Of a DNA stretch of 64,000 nt, positions 18,635 through 25,205 are shown one piece after another. The notes under the pieces were generated by a model. That model saw only the letters and a program-made list of their open reading frames with translations, searched no databases and was not told where the DNA came from. The translations under genes and the position numbers were made by a program. How positions within the stretch are numbered: the first letter of the stretch is position 1; every line of letters begins with the position of its first letter. Origin of the DNA: Lama glama (lineage: Eukaryota); assembly GCA_028534125.1 (NCBI GenBank), contig CM052816.1, positions 90,646,001 through 90,710,000 on the forward strand, in the 5' to 3' direction.

Positions 18635-19364
18635 GAACCAGAGTTCATGCATGAGGAACCCACCTTCCCCAAGCACATTTTCCCTTGGTTTCTTAACAGC
18701 TTCAGGGCTCTGTTCACAAGGAAGAAGTGGAGGTGAAGATTGGGCTGGTAAACGATGACAAAGGAGGAACAGGAGGGAGGGTACACCAGAGCCCAGCTAT
18801 TGGATGCGGTGGAAATTGGAATTATCAGAAAGTATTTGCTAGACCACCACCTGAGCAGTTTCAGATTCCAAAGGACAAAAATGAACCTCCAGCTCACCTA
18901 CAGCCCCCAACCTGGTGTTACAACAATACTCTGCAAATCAGCACACTGATGTTGGCTATATTTATGATTGTCACGTAAATTGGGGTAATAACCATTTTCC
19001 ACTTTGCATAATCACGGTGAGGCACAACAGACAATATGACAAAGCTGGCAGGAAAGTTCTCCCTATCTACCTGCAAAACACAGCAATGGGCTCATCCTTG
19101 ACTTGTCCCAGGGGACTTGGGCAGCAGAGAAAGTCCTCAGAGCTCCTCTAAGCATTTGAGAAGGTGTGAGTTGACTGCAGCAGGAATGAAGTTGGAGTAA
19201 TAATAATAACAACTGATATGCAGTTATACTTAAGTATATGCCAGGCATTTACCTAAGGTCAGGAAGTGGCAGAGTAGAATTTGCATGCAGTTGTTCTGCT
19301 GCAAAGCCCAGGCACTCTGCCACACTTTCTCCCCCAAACTCTAGATGACTAAGCTCTTCTGCGT

Positions 19365-19770
19365 GATAGTGCTCGAATTCCGAGGTGCATCAGAATCATC
19401 CAGACAACTTGCTGAAACACAGCTCTCTGGGCCAGTAGCATGCCAGAGTGGGTTCCTCAATCAGCTCGAGAGAGCTGATTGCCTGTATCTCTTTCCAACT
19501 CAATAGCAATGCATTCTGTGACATCACTTTGGTAACGTGAAATCAGTCATAGTGGGAGAATTTAAATCATGGGAATCAGCAAACTCTCAGGCATATCTTC
19601 CCCTGGTGAGCCAGTTGTTAAACTTTTATCAGCACACCATTGGCAAGTCCCCATCCGCAGAGTCTCTGATTCAGTAAACTTGAGATGGGCCCTGAGAATT
19701 TACATTTCTAATAAGTTCCCAGGTGATGCCGTTTCTACTGGTCCAGGGACCACACACTGAGAATTGCTTC
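19365..19770. mobile_element. MER5A-like hAT-Charlie element interrupted by MER63
   Basis: tgcatcagaatcatccag before the insert; agagtctctgattcagta...tttctaataagttcccaggtgatgc...gaccacacactgagaa after it. Confidence 0.8.
19433..19642. mobile_element. MER63-like hAT-Blackjack element
   Basis: Degenerate TIRs cagtagcatgccag and tcagcacaccattg; internal gtgacatcactttggtaacgtgaaatcag. Confidence 0.7.
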
Positions 19771-20061
19771 AGAGAGCCCTGAAATGGACAACAGTTTCTT
19801 GTCCTGATATAAGCCATCATGGACGTAAGAATCCTGGTAGTCTCAGCAAGGAATGTTGGCTGTAGATAACCCTACATCAAATTGCTACTAGTAAGAGCTA
19901 ATATTTATGGAGTGTTGACTGTAGGCAGCCAATGTCCTAGTCACACTGTACATTAACTCATTTAATCCTCCCAACAACCGTAGACAGCAGGTTCTATTAG
20001 TATGGGTGAGGACGAAACACAAAGCAGTCAAATGACTTGCTCAAGGTTGTACAAGGAGTAA

Positions 20062-21476
20062 GTGGAGAAAATACTAAAATCAGCAAGAGAAAAGCAACAA
20101 ATAATATACATAACATACAAGGCAACTCCCATAAGGTTATCAGCGGATTCTTCAGCAGAAACTCTACAGGCCAGAAGGGAGTGGCATGATATATTTAAAG
20201 TGATGAAAGGGAAAAACTTCTTACAACCAAGATTACTCTATCCAGCAAGGTTCTCATTCAGATTTGATGGAGAAATCAAAAGCTTCACAGGTAAACAAAA
20301 GCTAAACGAATTCAGCATCACCAATTCAGCTTTACAACAAATGTTAAAGGAACTTCTCTAGTCATCAAACCACAAGAAAAGAGAACAAAAACAAGAAAGA
20401 GAAAAAAAGAACTACAAAACAAATCCAAATTAATTAACAAAATGGCAATAAGAATACATGTATCGATAATTACCTTAAATGAAAATGGATTAAACACTCC
20501 AACCAAAAGAGATAGACTGGCCGAATGGATACAGAAAAACAACACCCATATATATGCTATCTACAAGAGACCCACTTCAGAGCTAGAGACACAAGCAGAT
20601 TGAAAGTGAGGGGATAGAAGAAAATATTCCATGCAAAGAGAAACCAAAAGAAAGCTGGAGTAGCAATACTTATATGAGACAACATCAACTTTAAAATAAA
20701 GACTGTTACAAGAGACAAAGATAATACATAATGCTCAAGGGATCAATCCAAGAAGATGATATGACAATTATAAATATATATATATATGCACCTAACATAG
20801 GGGCACCTCAAGATAAAAGGCAATTGTTAACAGACATAAAAGGAGAAATTGACAGTAACGCAATAATGTGGGGGGGACCTTAACACCCCCCTTACATCAA
20901 TGGACAGATCATCCAGACAGAAAATCAGTGAGGAAACACAGGCCTTAACTGACACATATGAGGTTAGAAATCAACTACAACGGAAAAAAAAAAACTGCTA
21001 ACACGTGGAGGCTGAACAATATGCTACTAAACAACTAGTGGATCATGAAGAAATCAAAGAGGAAATCAAAGAGGAAATCAAAAAATACTTGAGACAGATG
21101 AAAACGAAAACACAACAATCCAAAACCTTTGGGATGCGGCAAAAGCAGTTCTGAGGGGTGTCTGTGGTGATGAGGGCCTGCCTCAGGAAACAGGAGGGGT
21201 CTCAAATGGACACCCTTACCTTACCCCTGGGCCAGCTGGGAAAAGAAGAATGAACAGAACCCGGAGTTGGTAGAAGCGGGGAACTCATGGAGATCAGAGC
21301 AGAAATGGATGAAATGGAGACTAAAGGAGTAATAGAAAAGATCAATGGAACTAGGGGCTGGTTCTTTGAAATGATAAACAAAATTGATGAAACTTTGGTC
21401 AGGTTCATCAAGAAACAAACGGAGAGGACTCAGCTCAATAAAGTTGGAAGAGGAAAGGGAGAGATCACAGCTGGGT
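20062..21476 (+). mobile_element. L1 internal fragment (ORF1 C-terminus to ORF2 endonuclease/linker), truncated at both ends, internally deleted, 3' part A-to-G hypermutated
   Basis: ORF1: EKILKSAREKQ...PIRLSADSSAETLQARREWHDIFKVMK...LYPARFSF. ORF2: ITLNENGLNTPTKR, LQETHF, IYAPN, IEKINGTRGWFFE. No poly(A); abuts a MIR on the left. Confidence 0.95.
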
Positions 21477-22042
21477 AACAACGAATCGTAACTAGCCATG
21501 CAGAGACACCACGTGCAGTGACCACATGAAGGTGTGCTGGCTGCCTGCCCAGCTAAGAGTCCAGCCAACAGCTAAGCTCAACTACCAGACGTGTGTGAAG
21601 ATGCAACCAGGTGACCGCAGCCTCCGGGTACCAGCACACCCCAGCTGAGGTCCCAGCTCAGAATACACAATGTTAGGGCTTTTTTTTTTTTTTTATCTCA
21701 ATGGTTCTTTTCTATTTATAATTTCAGACTTTCACAAAATGTACAAAAAATTCCATAAATTTGTTTTCCTTGAACTGCTTTTTGCCATGGTAGGTAGATC
21801 ATTAAACACAACATTTACTCTTATAAACGAGATTTTCTAATCATCTGGAACATTGACACTTACTTCAACTGGCAGTGTCTTTTTATTTTGACTAAATATA
21901 TTAATGTTCCTCTGAATGGTATTGATAAATGGTCCAGAAGAGAAACTCATTGAAGTAAAAGTAATATTTATTCATGGTGATCAGCTAAATTGTTTGCCTA
22001 ATTTAAGAAAACTACTGCACAAAACTCTCAATCTGACATGAG

Positions 22043-22542
22043 NNNNNNNNNNNNNNNNNNNNNNNNNNNNNNNNNNNNNNNNNNNNNNNNNNNNNNNNNN
22101 NNNNNNNNNNNNNNNNNNNNNNNNNNNNNNNNNNNNNNNNNNNNNNNNNNNNNNNNNNNNNNNNNNNNNNNNNNNNNNNNNNNNNNNNNNNNNNNNNNNN
22201 NNNNNNNNNNNNNNNNNNNNNNNNNNNNNNNNNNNNNNNNNNNNNNNNNNNNNNNNNNNNNNNNNNNNNNNNNNNNNNNNNNNNNNNNNNNNNNNNNNNN
22301 NNNNNNNNNNNNNNNNNNNNNNNNNNNNNNNNNNNNNNNNNNNNNNNNNNNNNNNNNNNNNNNNNNNNNNNNNNNNNNNNNNNNNNNNNNNNNNNNNNNN
22401 NNNNNNNNNNNNNNNNNNNNNNNNNNNNNNNNNNNNNNNNNNNNNNNNNNNNNNNNNNNNNNNNNNNNNNNNNNNNNNNNNNNNNNNNNNNNNNNNNNNN
22501 NNNNNNNNNNNNNNNNNNNNNNNNNNNNNNNNNNNNNNNNNN
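22043..22542. other. Assembly gap (500 N)
   Basis: Exactly 500 N; the round length suggests a scaffolding placeholder of unknown true size. Confidence 0.99.
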
Positions 22543-22731
22543 TAAGTCAATGCCTCCCAAACTTGCCTTCCTGTCGGAATCACCTGGGTGACTTTAAATA
22601 TTAAATAGTAGGTATTAATAGTCCCCATCCCAGAGCCAGAAAAAGGGCCAGAGAATCTGAATTTTAATAAATGCTTAAGATCCTTCAAGTCTGGGGAAAG
22701 GCTGACTTCAAATTAAAATCACCCAGAGGCT

Positions 22732-22978
22732 ATGCAGAGACGCCACATGGAGTGACCACATGAAGGTGGTCATGCCTGCCCAGCTAAAGTTCCAGCCAAC
22801 AGATAGGTTCGATTGCCAGATGTGTGTGAAGATGCTCCCGGGTGCCCTCAGCCTCCGGGTACCAGCACACCCCAGCTGAGGTCCCGGATGTCGTGGAACA
22901 GAGACAAGTTATCCCCTTTTTGCCCTGTCCGAATTTCCGGACCAATAGCCTCCAGGAGCCCAATAAATTTGTTTAATG
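22732..22978 (+). mobile_element. MLT1-type LTR 3' half (partial second copy at 21498-21656)
   Basis: ccagatgtgtgtgaagatg...cccagctgaggtcccggatgtcgtggaacagagacaag...tgccctgtccgaatttcc...aataaa. Confidence 0.7.
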
Positions 22979-23187: not shown

Positions 23188-23252
23188 TGGTAGGTAGATA
23201 GGTAGATAGGTAGATAGATAGATAGATAAGATAGATAGACAGACAGACAGAC
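23188..23252. repeat. Compound (TAGG/TAGA/CAGA)n tetranucleotide repeat
   Basis: Directly visible. Confidence 0.9.
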
Positions 23253-25205
23253 ATAATAGATAAAACACAGATATACAAATAGATACGTATAGCTGATCTA
23301 TTTGAAAATAATTTGAAGACGTGACATTTTACCTGTAAGTACTTACGCATGGAACTATCCAAAAATAAGGGCCTTATCCTCCATAAACAATACCATTATC
23401 ATGTCCAAGAAAATACAGCAATTCCATATCTAGTCTGTACTCAAATCTCAATTGTCTCAAAAATCTCATTTTTTGCTCTTTTTTCAAACCAGAAGCCAAT
23501 CAGTTTTCATGCATTGCATTTGCTTGTTCAGAGTCTTTAGTCTAGTGTTCTTCTATTTATTTATTTTAAAAATTGTGTTGACTTTTTAAAGCAACCATGT
23601 CTTCTAGCACATTCTGCTACCTGTTGGTCTGATCGTGTCTTGAGGGCATTATTTAACTGACACATCTCTTCCCAGGTCCTGAGCTGAAATCTAAATGTAA
23701 AGAGCCGATTCAGATCAAGCTTTGGGGCGAGTGTCACTCACAGGAGGTGGGTATTGACATCCCACCAAGCGGCACCTATAGAGTCAGGTTGTTATGCCAT
23801 TAGTGATCCTGACCTTGGCTGATGATTACCCCTCCATTAAAACTCATTTTCCTATTTGCAAATAGCACGGAATCTGTGAGGTGGTATTCTGGCACGTGAA
23901 TGTCCTGTTTCCCCAACAAAACTCCATTTTGCAGCTTTAACATCCATTGATGACTCTTGCCTGAAAGAATTACTGGGACTTTGCAAAATGATCTTCTTTT
24001 TTTTTTTTTTTTTTCAGCTTTGTATTAGGGCATCATCCATGCCCAAGATCACGCTTTTTTCTGTATGATTTTGTGGGTCTTGAAAAATGTATGTATATTT
24101 TCAGGCAACTGCCACAACCACTGAGATACAGAATATTTCTACCACCCACCAGTAATTCCCCTACATCCTGTTCTGTGCAGTCAACCCCCGACCCTGGCCC
24201 TTGTCAATCACTAATCTGTTTTCTGCCCCTTTAGATTTGCCTTTTCCAAAATGTCACATACATGGAACTGACACTGGGTCGCCTTTTAAGTATGGCTTTT
24301 CTTTCACTTAACAAAATGTGTTTGAGACCCATCCATGCTGTTCACGTATCAGCAGTCCCTTCCTGTTTATTGCTGAGCAGAATCCCACTGCAGGGGTGCA
24401 CGGCCATCTGTTGAGCCATCCCAAGGTGAGGGACGTTTGGGTTGTTCACAGTTTGAGGCAATTGCGAACAAAGCCGTACAAACATTCTCACCCAGGCCTT
24501 TGGGGGAACTTGAGTTTTCATTCCACTTGGGTAAATGCTTAGGAATAGGATTTCCAGGTTTTTTAGTAAGTGTATGTTTAACCTTATAAGAAAATGCTAA
24601 ACTCTCTTCCACAGTGGCTGTGCTATCTTACATCTCACTCATGCTGGGAGTTATACGGTCATTTTTAAAATTCTGTCATCATTTATACTTCTTAACTGAC
24701 ACTCTCCCATCGGGGAGGGGAAATACTATCTCATCAACTTGAGATGAACTGTATCTGTTATCATAAAAGCATACTAAATGCTAATTCTTTTTGCTTAATT
24801 ACCAGTTTTTAGAGTAAAGAGTTTTCATAGGCATCACCTCTAATTGTAGCAAGATTTTCTTTTTCATTCCTCTCTCTTTTCTGTAACTATGGACTTCTGA
24901 ATTCTTACTTATTCCATATTTTACAATCAACAAGATTTATCATTCTTTTTAATGCTCAAAGTGCCCCAAGTTTGCCTAATGGAAATGTAATTGAGTTGGT
25001 CCTTTGAGCTCTGGATGACTTCATTAACCTTTGACACCTTTTTCCTTTCTCAGCAATAAGATTCCCATTCTCGCCTTGAACCAGGCCTTGGACCAGACAT
25101 TTCTCCAAAAGGACCAAATTCTTGAAATGATAGTTAGAAACCAGGTAGGCAGTAGCCTTCTTGTGGCGACTGGGATGTCCTCATATTTAGGTTGTTTCAA
25201 TGGAA

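What the first reader, a model, noticed from the sequence alone, without database searches (positions are those of the whole stretch)
21150..21476. L1 segment with dense strand-specific A-to-G hypermutation: a possible genomic fossil of ADAR-hyperedited RNA
Seen: the L1 is normally A-rich up to ~21150, then abruptly becomes G-rich while staying colinear with ORF2. It translates as VVMRACLRKQEGSQMDTLTLPLGQLGKEE*TEPGVGRSGELMEIRAEMDEMETKGVIEKINGTRGWFFE...NKVGRGKGEITAG. Knowledge (L1 ORF2 recalled from memory): [69 protein letters not shown]...NKIRNEKGEITTD. Most replacements (I>M, I>V, Y>C, K>R/E/G, N>D, S>G, E>G, T>A, D>G) are A>G codon changes. T residues are largely untouched, TA and AA contexts are hit and A after G is mostly spared, matching the known ADAR 5'-neighbour preference. 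GCA>GTG and CAA>TGA fit A>G followed by CpG decay. Inference: an inosine-rich L1 transcript was reverse-transcribed into the germline. The element ends right at the edited tract with no poly(A), as if the RNA had been cut or primed there (speculative). This is the opposite direction to the well-known APOBEC3 G>A editing of retroelements.
Basis: partly seen in the sequence, partly recalled or inferred. Interest (0 to 1): 0.8.

Follow-up and report, generated by a model that had tools for sequence, protein, structure and literature searches.

The report
A-to-G hypermutated L1 retrotransposon fragment
One old L1 retrotransposon copy has about a third of the adenines in its last 320 bases changed to guanine on the coding strand only, which is most simply read as a rare inherited trace of RNA editing by ADAR before the element was copied into the genome.

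Summary
I compared the L1 fragment (window 20064-21494, + strand) with a column-majority reference from 35 paralogues in the same genome. It shows A>G at 51 of 167 adenines in 21150-21476, against 21 of 494 upstream (p=4e-18). T>C is 4 of 57 there, and changes at non-A sites stay at background (19 of 160). The onset is sharp at 21158. A weaker zone (16 of 178) runs from 20763 to 21157. No other copy comes close: the best genomic match to the tract is 77% identical, and the highest A>G count among the 35 paralogues is 18. The 5' neighbour order is T>A>C~G and the 3' trend is G-highest, as published for ADAR. gBGC, an L1 subfamily difference and APOBEC editing all fail their tests. Twenty public runs from 9 studies and 4 organism labels hold 72-90% of the sampled words of the stretch. 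The best reading (about 0.65) is that an ADAR-hyperedited L1 RNA was reverse-transcribed and fixed in the germline. Polymerase error and in-situ DNA-strand deamination next to the 3' breakpoint are not excluded. I found no report of such an L1 fossil in the searchable literature.

The parts
20064..21494 (+). 5'- and 3'-truncated L1 fragment, running from the end of ORF1 to about residue 300 of ORF2. It has no poly(A).
   Evidence: BLAST and MAFFT against 58 paralogous loci. Pfam PF17490 at 20062-20358, E=1.5e-22. The 3' limit of 21476-21494 comes from the alignment.
20064..20762 (+). L1 zone with background substitution only
   Evidence: A>G 5/317, T>C 6/128, non-A changes 34/366
20763..21157 (+). 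Intermediate zone with mildly raised A>G
   Evidence: A>G 16/178, highest after T (6/29). T>C 3/66, non-A changes 17/198.
20956..20957 (+). Site of a 182-base deletion relative to the paralogues. It is not bounded by GT..AG.
   Evidence: 182 majority columns are missing here. Boundaries are shown. In one search every scored match broke at this point in the query (1-558 and 558-750); none was contiguous across it.
21158..21476 (+). Strand-specific A>G hypermutated tract
   Evidence: A>G 51/166, T>C 4/55, non-A changes 19/153. 50-base bins read 13/25, 8/25, 9/29, 8/28, 3/23, 7/29. Adjacent changed sites form runs of 2 (six), 3 (three) and 4 (one).
21477..21494 (+). Probable last bases of the L1, after a deletion of about 10 bases. 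The match is weak.
   Evidence: By-eye comparison with the paralogue continuation printed: about 11 of 17 positions agree. This is inference.
21495..21685 (+). 5'-truncated LTR-like repeat ('LTR1') that abuts the L1. It shows no A>G excess.
   Evidence: 84% identical to 22729-22885. Differences counted LTR2>LTR1: A>G 2, G>A 8, T>C 5, C>T 2.
22729..22885 (+). Second copy of the same LTR-like repeat ('LTR2'), used as the comparator for LTR1
22043..22542 (.). Assembly gap of 500 N between the two LTR-like copies

Best explanation
A sense-strand L1 RNA was double-stranded over at least the stretch that is now 21158-21494, with looser pairing back to about 20763. An ADAR enzyme deaminated 30-50% of its adenosines to inosine. 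The L1 reverse transcriptase read inosine as G, and the 5'-truncated cDNA was integrated in the germline tens of millions of years ago. The copy then aged like its relatives.

Shown here: the strand-specific, A-only, clustered change; its sharp 5' border; its context preference; and normal background divergence.

Inferred: the enzyme, the dsRNA partner, and that the change happened before integration.

The missing 3' part and poly(A) come either from a later deletion that joined the L1 to the neighbouring LTR-like repeat, or from an endonuclease-independent, internally primed insertion at a DNA break. These two cannot be told apart here.
For: 1. A>G is 51/167 in the tract against 21/494 upstream (p=4.5e-18). 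T>C is 4/57, G>A 4/56, C>T 5/47.
2. Non-A divergence is alike across the three zones (34/366, 17/198, 19/153). The tract therefore has the same age and lineage as the rest of the element.
3. The density (31% overall, 13/25 in the first 50-base bin) and the runs of up to 4 adjacent changed As fit promiscuous deamination of a long duplex. The expected density for ADAR is from my own knowledge.
4. The 5' neighbour order is T 13/23 > A 28/82 > C 4/20 ~ G 6/32 (chi-square p=0.016). The 3' trend is G 14/36 > C 6/18 ~ A 27/85 > T 4/18, not significant. Published hyper-editing shows G depleted upstream and enriched downstream (PMC4365171, passages). The weak zone shows the same preference for 5' T (6/29).
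5. The copy is a singleton. The best genomic match to the tract is 77%, the 35 paralogues reach at most 18 A>G per 327 columns, and 1405 control pairs reach at most 32 per 300 bp.
6. Two of 22 ancestral CA dinucleotides now read TG and one reads CG. That is what old A>G changes followed by CpG decay would leave.
7. Twenty runs from 9 studies and 4 organism labels hold 0.72-0.90 of 87 sampled words of 20900-21720. If the tract's words (about 39% of the stretch) were all missing, the share could not exceed about 0.61. That limit is my inference.
8. There is precedent. ADAR-linked A-to-G hyperediting fixed through reverse transcription is reported for RAV-1, avian leukosis virus and HTLV-2/STLV-3 (PMC8586724, passages).
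Against: - No dsRNA partner can be shown. There is no long inverted repeat in a 3.5-kb paralogue or around the locus.
- Depletion of 5' G alone is not significant (6/32 against 45/125, p=0.09), and the 3' preference is not significant (p=0.67).
- The W-A context (41/105 against 10/52, p=0.018) is also the context of polymerase eta errors (recalled).
- A>C plus A>T is mildly raised in the tract (10/166 against 9/495, p=0.012). Pure A-to-I editing does not predict this. Secondary mutation of the new Gs explains only part of it.
- Cell-culture studies found no editing of L1 RNA, and found ADAR1/ADAR2 restriction of L1 to be editing-independent (PMC5224506 and PMC8677026, passages).
- The tract abuts a rearrangement junction, so its confinement to the L1 does not prove a pre-integration origin.
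Confidence: 0.65

Rival explanations
1. Polymerase error. One version is that the L1 reverse transcriptase, copying under a skewed dNTP pool, put dC opposite template A. The other is that an error-prone DNA polymerase such as pol eta, filling a gap on this strand, produced WA>WG changes.
For: The changed As prefer a 5' T or A (41/105 against 10/52, p=0.018), which is also the pol eta WA context (recalled). A>C plus A>T is slightly raised (10/166 against 9/495), as a polymerase would give. The tract lies next to a breakpoint, where repair synthesis is plausible.
Against: 31% of As are changed, and 52% in one 50-base bin, with runs of 3-4 adjacent changes. That is far above known misincorporation rates and would require repeated mismatch extension (from knowledge). 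51 of 61 changes at A are A>G, whereas pol eta spectra carry a larger share of A>T and A>C (recalled). The 5' border is sharp and the level is plateau-like. An error caused by the dNTP pool should affect the whole cDNA, yet 20064-20762 reads 5/317.
Confidence: 0.12
2. In-place deamination of the DNA. After insertion, the + strand of this L1 was held in a DNA:RNA hybrid with an antisense RNA, in an R-loop or at a resected double-strand break. An ADAR then deaminated deoxyadenosines in the DNA strand. The break was later joined to the LTR-like repeat, deleting the rest of the L1.
For: The tract ends at a rearrangement junction with no poly(A). At a resected left-hand end, the + strand is the strand that would be exposed (inference). 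ADARs deaminate dA in DNA/RNA hybrids in vitro with their usual context preferences (PMC5389660, abstract). ADAR activity at DNA:RNA hybrids at breaks is reported (PMC8448848, title and listing only).
Against: A>G is highest at the far edge from the junction (13/25 at 21164-21213) and lower near it (3/23, 7/29). It then drops abruptly rather than decaying with distance. The other side of the junction shows no matching T>C cluster (LTR2>LTR1: T>C 5, C>T 2). As far as I know and could find, heritable DNA editing by ADAR has never been shown in vivo. A retroelement passes through RNA in any case, which makes RNA editing the cheaper assumption.
Confidence: 0.08
3. GC-biased gene conversion, or a local weak-to-strong mutation bias.
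For: The tract is GC-richer than the rest of the L1 (0.40-0.52 against 0.27-0.39). Another copy, L007, shows that such bias occurs in this genome.
Against: T>C is 4/57 against A>G 51/167 (p=2.8e-4). G>A and C>T are not depressed (4/56, 5/47). L007, the gBGC-like example, shows both A>G 72/905 and T>C 58/415 with low G>A 15/317 and C>T 17/360. That is a different pattern.
Confidence: 0.02
4. The tract belongs to another L1 lineage or subfamily, or to a mosaic or converted copy, whose consensus carries these Gs.
For: None beyond the raised divergence of the tract from the paralogues (72-77% against 80-86% upstream).
Against: The best non-self match in the genome is 77% (40 scored of 1505 candidates). 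Non-A divergence equals that of the rest of the element. Paralogues carry G at the changed sites at mean frequency 0.039, maximum 0.39.
Confidence: 0.02
5. An assembly or sequencing artefact.
For: The assembly is fragmented (1,072,352 contigs). A 500-N gap lies 570 bases downstream. The read pile-up could not be made.
Against: Twenty runs from 9 studies under 4 organism labels hold 0.72-0.90 of the sampled 31-letter words. CA>TG changes in the tract look like old CpG decay after the A>G change. I know of no sequencing error mode that gives A>G on one strand in one 320-base block.
Confidence: 0.03

Closest known systems
ADAR-linked A-to-G hyperediting of retroviral genomes (RAV-1, avian leukosis virus, HTLV-2/STLV-3; as summarised in PMC8586724, passages read)
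   Same: Clustered A>G on the genomic-sense strand of a reverse-transcribing element. The edits are made on RNA and become DNA through reverse transcription. Depletion of 5' G is used as the hallmark.
   Different: Those are exogenous retroviruses in infected cells or tumours. This is a non-LTR L1 copy fixed in the germline. It is old (7% diverged from its family majority), 3'-truncated and lacks poly(A).
APOBEC3 G-to-A edited retroelement fossils (Knisbacher and Levanon, PMC4866542, passages read; Carmi et al. 2011 not held)
   Same: A single genomic copy of a retroelement carries a dense, strand-specific cluster of one transition relative to its family. It is detected by pairwise and consensus comparison.
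   Different: The direction is opposite (A>G, not G>A) and the substrate is different (dsRNA, not single-stranded cDNA). In that ERV survey, clusters of all mismatch types other than G>A and C>T were 1,680-fold rarer than G>A.
Hyper-edited RNA clusters in transcriptomes (Porath et al. 2014, PMC4365171, passages read)
   Same: [quoted passage not shown]
   Different: Those are differences between RNA and its own DNA and are not inherited. Here the Gs are in the genome.
Endonuclease-independent or internally primed L1 insertions at DNA breaks (recalled from the L1 literature; not read here)
   Same: A 3'-truncated L1 with no poly(A) and no visible target-site duplication, and possible short homology at the 3' junction (inference).
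   Different: Not tested. A later deletion gives the same anatomy, and no empty site was available for comparison.
GC-biased gene conversion tracts
   Same: A local rise in G+C within an old repeat.
   Different: gBGC raises A>G and T>C together and lowers G>A and C>T, as seen in locus L007. Here only A>G on one strand is raised.

Membership tests
ADAR hyper-editing footprint | Clustered A>G on one strand only, with the complementary T>C at background | tested here: met
   A>G 51/167 against T>C 4/57 in 21150-21476 (p=2.8e-4). Upstream A>G is 21/494.
ADAR hyper-editing footprint | A high fraction of adenosines changed within a bounded stretch, as for a long duplex | tested here: met
   31% overall and 13/25 in the first bin. 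The 5' border is sharp at 21158. The expected 30-50% range is recalled, not from a call.
ADAR hyper-editing footprint | 5' neighbour preference with G depleted | tested here: inconclusive
   The rank order is T 13/23 > A 28/82 > C 4/20 ~ G 6/32 and the four-way test gives p=0.016. G versus non-G alone gives p=0.09. CpG decay may also lower the count after C.
ADAR hyper-editing footprint | 3' neighbour G enriched | tested here: inconclusive
   G 14/36, C 6/18, A 27/85, T 4/18. The direction is right but p=0.67.
ADAR hyper-editing footprint | A complementary sequence able to form dsRNA with the edited stretch | not testable with these tools
   The source locus and any trans partner are unknown. 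No long inverted repeat was found in a 3.5-kb paralogue or in window 19000-22040.
ADAR hyper-editing footprint | The change arose on RNA, before integration | not testable with these tools
   The adjoining LTR-like repeat is not hypermutated (A>G 2, G>A 8). A later deletion could have created that junction, so this is not decisive. Outgroup genomes are not on hand.
APOBEC3-edited retroelement | Clustered G>A on the sense strand | tested here: not met
   G>A is 4/56 in the tract against 9/175 upstream.
GC-biased gene conversion tract | All weak-to-strong changes raised on both strands, and strong-to-weak changes lowered | tested here: not met
   T>C 4/57, T>G 0, A>C 6/167. C>T 5/47 and G>A 4/56 are not lowered. 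L007 serves as the contrast.
L1 (LINE-1) retrotransposon copy | Colinear homology to ORF1 and ORF2 of genomic L1 copies | tested here: met
   PF17490 at E=1.5e-22. Alignment to 58 paralogous loci spans 20064-21476.
L1 (LINE-1) retrotransposon copy | Hallmarks of target-primed insertion: 3' end with poly(A), and a target-site duplication | tested here: not met
   The L1 stops in ORF2 at about 21494 and abuts an LTR-like repeat. There is no poly(A) there and no duplication was seen at the two junctions.

The most novel reading that the evidence does not exclude
The Gs were written into DNA in place. In this reading the + strand of an already inserted L1 sat in a DNA:RNA hybrid at a resected break or R-loop, and an ADAR deaminated its deoxyadenosines. 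The break was then repaired by joining to the neighbouring LTR-like repeat. This would be the first heritable trace of ADAR acting on genomic DNA. A milder novel reading is more likely (about 0.2): hyper-editing and the 3' truncation are causally linked, with the inosine-rich duplex RNA cut and then used as template for an endonuclease-independent insertion at a break.
Probability: 0.07. Interest if true: 0.9.

Novelty: new variant of a known kind. Interest (0 to 1): 0.62.

Why it matters
Host deaminases are known to leave fossils in genomes, but the documented ones are APOBEC G>A tracts. Whether ADAR editing of retrotransposon RNA ever becomes heritable sequence is an open point. A 2016 review says such roles have 'not yet been determined' for Alu (PMC4982230). 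Cell-culture work found no editing of L1 RNA (PMC5224506 and PMC8677026). A survey of ERVs found non-G>A clusters to be vanishingly rare (PMC4866542). One clear A>G-hypermutated L1 copy shows that the route RNA editing, then reverse transcription, then germline probably exists for L1. It also supplies a concrete signature for a genome-wide screen: sense strand only, T>A>C~G context, plateau with a sharp edge. If the change arose in place instead, it would point to a new germline mutational process.

Tried and rejected
Support for the assembly therefore rests on shared words only.
2. Splicing as the cause of the 182-base gap at 20956/7: the missing segment is not bounded by GT..AG. I rejected this and treat it as an ordinary deletion.
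3. Spread of the hypermutation into the adjoining LTR-like repeat: not seen (A>G 2 against G>A 8).
4. A cis inverted repeat as the dsRNA partner: the only pairs found are 29-30 nt at 70-72% complementarity. There is no other L1 of this region in the 64-kb window.
5. A search for further hypermutated copies among the fetched loci. L008, L027, L030 and L002 gave high A>G counts only where every substitution type was high, so those stretches are misaligned or foreign. L007 is weak-to-strong on both strands. L005 has a mild one-strand cluster. The sample is small (28-55 loci). It was also picked by similarity, which works against finding edited copies.
6. Literature. Seven completed full-text searches found no paper that describes a germline L1 copy with an ADAR-type A>G cluster. 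Carmi et al. 2011 is not held and subscription journals are not covered, so a prior report cannot be excluded. An endogenous mouse Mtv61 with A>G excess was reported as lacking the ADAR context (PMC12548423).
7. Earlier findings of this scan held nothing relevant.
8. The names MIR-like for 19940-20063 and MaLR/MLT1-like for the LTR copies are recalled resemblances. No tool here tested them.

Full report
WHAT IS THERE

Window 20064-21494 (+ strand) is a fragment of an L1 retrotransposon. The frame at 20062-20358 matches the L1 ORF1 dsRBD-like domain (Pfam PF17490, E=1.5e-22). The DNA is colinear with hundreds of L1 copies in the same 2.35-Gb genome. It runs from the end of ORF1 to about residue 300 of ORF2.

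The fragment lacks 182 bases at 20956/7 relative to its relatives. That gap is not bounded by GT..AG, and every scored match broke at this point in the query.

The fragment has no poly(A). L1 homology is clear to 21476 and weak to about 21494. From 21495 the sequence is a 5'-truncated LTR-like repeat, 84% identical to a second copy at 22729-22885. A 500-N gap lies between the two copies.

CHECKING THE OBSERVATION

I fetched paralogues in two ways: by similarity to the tract and, to avoid bias, by similarity to the upstream part 20400-21149. I aligned 35 that span the region and used their column majority as the ancestral state, inside scripts only.

Results:
- 20064-20956: 63 changes in 869 aligned sites. 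A>G 13/402, T>C 7/163.
- 21150-21476: 80 changes in 327 sites, of which 51 are A>G (51/167 adenines).
- In the tract, T>C is 4/57, C>T 5/47, G>A 4/56. All changes at non-A sites total 19/160, the same as elsewhere.
- A>G inside versus outside gives p=4.5e-18. A>G versus T>C inside the tract gives p=2.8e-4.

Change-point fitting gives three zones:
- 20064-20762: 5/317.
- 20763-21157: 16/178.
- 21158-21476: 51/166.

Within the tract the level is highest at its 5' edge (13/25) and lower near the 3' junction (3/23, 7/29).

CONTROLS

Treating each of the 35 paralogues in turn as the test sequence, the largest A>G count in 327 columns is 5-18. The window copy has 51.

In an all-against-all comparison of 55 loci, the 25 strongest single-type clusters all involve the window copy (45-50 per 300 bases). 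Among 1405 pairs without it the maximum is 32 and the 99.9th percentile is 27.

The best non-self match to the tract anywhere in the genome is 77% identical (40 scored of 1505 candidates). Paralogues carry G at the changed sites at a mean frequency of only 0.039. The G-rich version is therefore a singleton, not a subfamily.

CONTEXT OF THE CHANGED SITES

Changed fractions by ancestral 5' neighbour are T 13/23, A 28/82, C 4/20 and G 6/32 (chi-square p=0.016). G versus non-G alone gives p=0.09. By 3' neighbour they are G 14/36, C 6/18, A 27/85 and T 4/18, which is not significant.

The weak zone shows the same preference for 5' T (6/29, against 6/79, 2/40 and 2/26).

This is the direction published for ADAR hyper-editing: G depleted upstream and enriched downstream (PMC4365171, passages).

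Adjacent changed sites occur in runs of two (six runs), three (three runs) and four (one run).

Of 22 ancestral CA dinucleotides in the tract, two now read TG and one reads CG.

IS THE ASSEMBLY RIGHT?

Twenty public runs from 9 studies under 4 coded organism labels hold 0.72-0.90 of 87 sampled 31-letter words of 20900-21720. The tract is about 39% of that stretch, so a share above about 0.61 requires tract words to be present. That limit is my inference. One of the holders may be the assembly's own sample.

WHAT IT MOST LIKELY IS

The pattern has these features:
- Only adenines are affected, and only on the L1 sense strand.
- About a third of them are changed, in a bounded block.
- The context preference is ADAR-like.
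- Background divergence is normal.

The known process that produces this in a reverse-transcribing element is ADAR deamination of a double-stranded stretch of the sense RNA. Inosine is then read as G by reverse transcriptase. The same has been described for exogenous retroviruses (RAV-1, avian leukosis virus, HTLV-2/STLV-3; PMC8586724, passages). I give this reading about 0.65.

The divergence of the unaffected part (7.2% from the family majority, within the 5-11% shown by most paralogues; one, L030, reached 15.8%) places the insertion in the period when this L1 family was active. That is tens of millions of years ago, using recalled mammalian substitution rates.

WHAT SPEAKS AGAINST IT, AND THE RIVALS

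No dsRNA partner can be shown.

The preference for a 5' T or A (41/105 against 10/52) is also that of polymerase eta (recalled). A>C plus A>T is mildly raised in the tract (10/166 against 9/495, p=0.012). A polymerase-error origin therefore keeps about 0.12. The density, the runs of adjacent changes, the 84% share of A>G among changes at A, and the untouched upstream cDNA all argue against it.

Cell-culture studies saw no editing of L1 RNA (PMC5224506 and PMC8677026, passages). Such events must be rare.

The tract ends at a rearrangement junction, so the lack of hypermutation in the adjoining LTR-like repeat (A>G 2, G>A 8) does not prove a pre-integration origin. If a later deletion created the junction, an in-place process on the L1 would look the same. 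ADARs can deaminate dA in DNA/RNA hybrids in vitro (PMC5389660, abstract). I keep in-place DNA-strand editing at about 0.08. The profile argues against it: the level peaks away from the junction and ends abruptly, and there is no mirror T>C cluster across the junction.

Three rivals fail the tests above:
- gBGC. Locus L007 shows what a weak-to-strong bias on both strands looks like here: A>G 72/905, T>C 58/415, G>A 15/317, C>T 17/360.
- A subfamily difference.
- APOBEC editing.

THE 3' END

Three features fit an endonuclease-independent, internally primed insertion at a break: the L1 stops in ORF2, there is no poly(A), and there is a hint of short shared sequence between the L1 continuation and the LTR-like repeat at the junction (by eye). 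They fit a later deletion equally well.

NOVELTY

In the searchable library I found no description of a germline L1 copy with an ADAR-type A>G cluster.
- A 2016 review states that roles of ADAR editing in Alu evolution were undetermined (PMC4982230, passage).
- A vertebrate-wide ERV survey found clusters of all mismatch types other than G>A and C>T to be 1,680-fold rarer than G>A (PMC4866542, passage).
- An endogenous Mtv with A>G excess lacked the ADAR context (PMC12548423, passage).
- Carmi et al. 2011 and subscription journals could not be read, so prior mention cannot be excluded.

I rate this a new variant of a known kind (deaminase-hypermutated retroelement fossils), with interest 0.62. 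The phenomenon is clean and rare and opens a simple genome-wide test. The enzyme is inferred, and the mechanism is an expected extension of known biology.

SCAN FOR MORE CASES

Among the 28-55 fetched copies, only L005 (G000:C36:7720196-7723569, L1 on the minus strand) shows a mild one-strand cluster. It reads A>G 12/92 over 200 bases with T>C 0/40 and none after G (0/40), and lies inside an otherwise ordinary L1. This is suggestive only. The sample was chosen by similarity, which disfavours edited copies.

Noticed in passing
L005 (= L038; G000:C36:7720196-7723569, L1 on the minus strand), about 1.6-1.8 kb into the extracted sense sequence: A second L1 copy has a mild one-strand A>G cluster: 12/92 adenines over 200 bases (16/138 in the best 300 columns), T>C 0/40, and no changed A after G (0/40). 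It is not next to any breakpoint. It may be a lightly edited copy.
   Followed up: partly
L007 (G000:C13:3911199-3914564, L1 on the minus strand): This copy shows weak-to-strong bias on both strands over about 2 kb: A>G 72/905, T>C 58/415, G>A 15/317, C>T 17/360. The pattern is gBGC-like and served as the contrast case.
   Followed up: partly
window 21495-21685 and 22729-22885: Two direct copies of an LTR-like repeat, 84% identical and about 1.2 kb apart, are the only two matches scored by the genome search (which skips very common words and scores only the best candidates). They may be the two LTRs of one old element, or a local duplication. The first copy lacks its 5' part. Their resemblance to MaLR/MLT1 is recalled and not tested.
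   Followed up: partly
window 22043-22542: A 500-N assembly gap lies between the two LTR-like copies.
   Followed up: no
window 21048-21083: A 12-base unit stands three times in tandem inside the L1. The alignment shows an 11-column insertion here relative to the paralogues.
   Followed up: no
L044 and L045 (G000:C972358:1153528-1157078 and 739364-742914); L049 and L054 (contigs C982347 and C983037, 676 bases each): These pairs of loci have identical substitution statistics or identical match coordinates. They are probably segmental or assembly duplicates.
   Followed up: no
window 19940-20063: The sequence just upstream of the L1 resembles an old MIR-type SINE (recalled, not tested). It is cut off at the L1 junction, and no continuation was seen downstream of the L1.
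   Followed up: no
window 23190-23260: A GATA/TAGA-type microsatellite.
   Followed up: no
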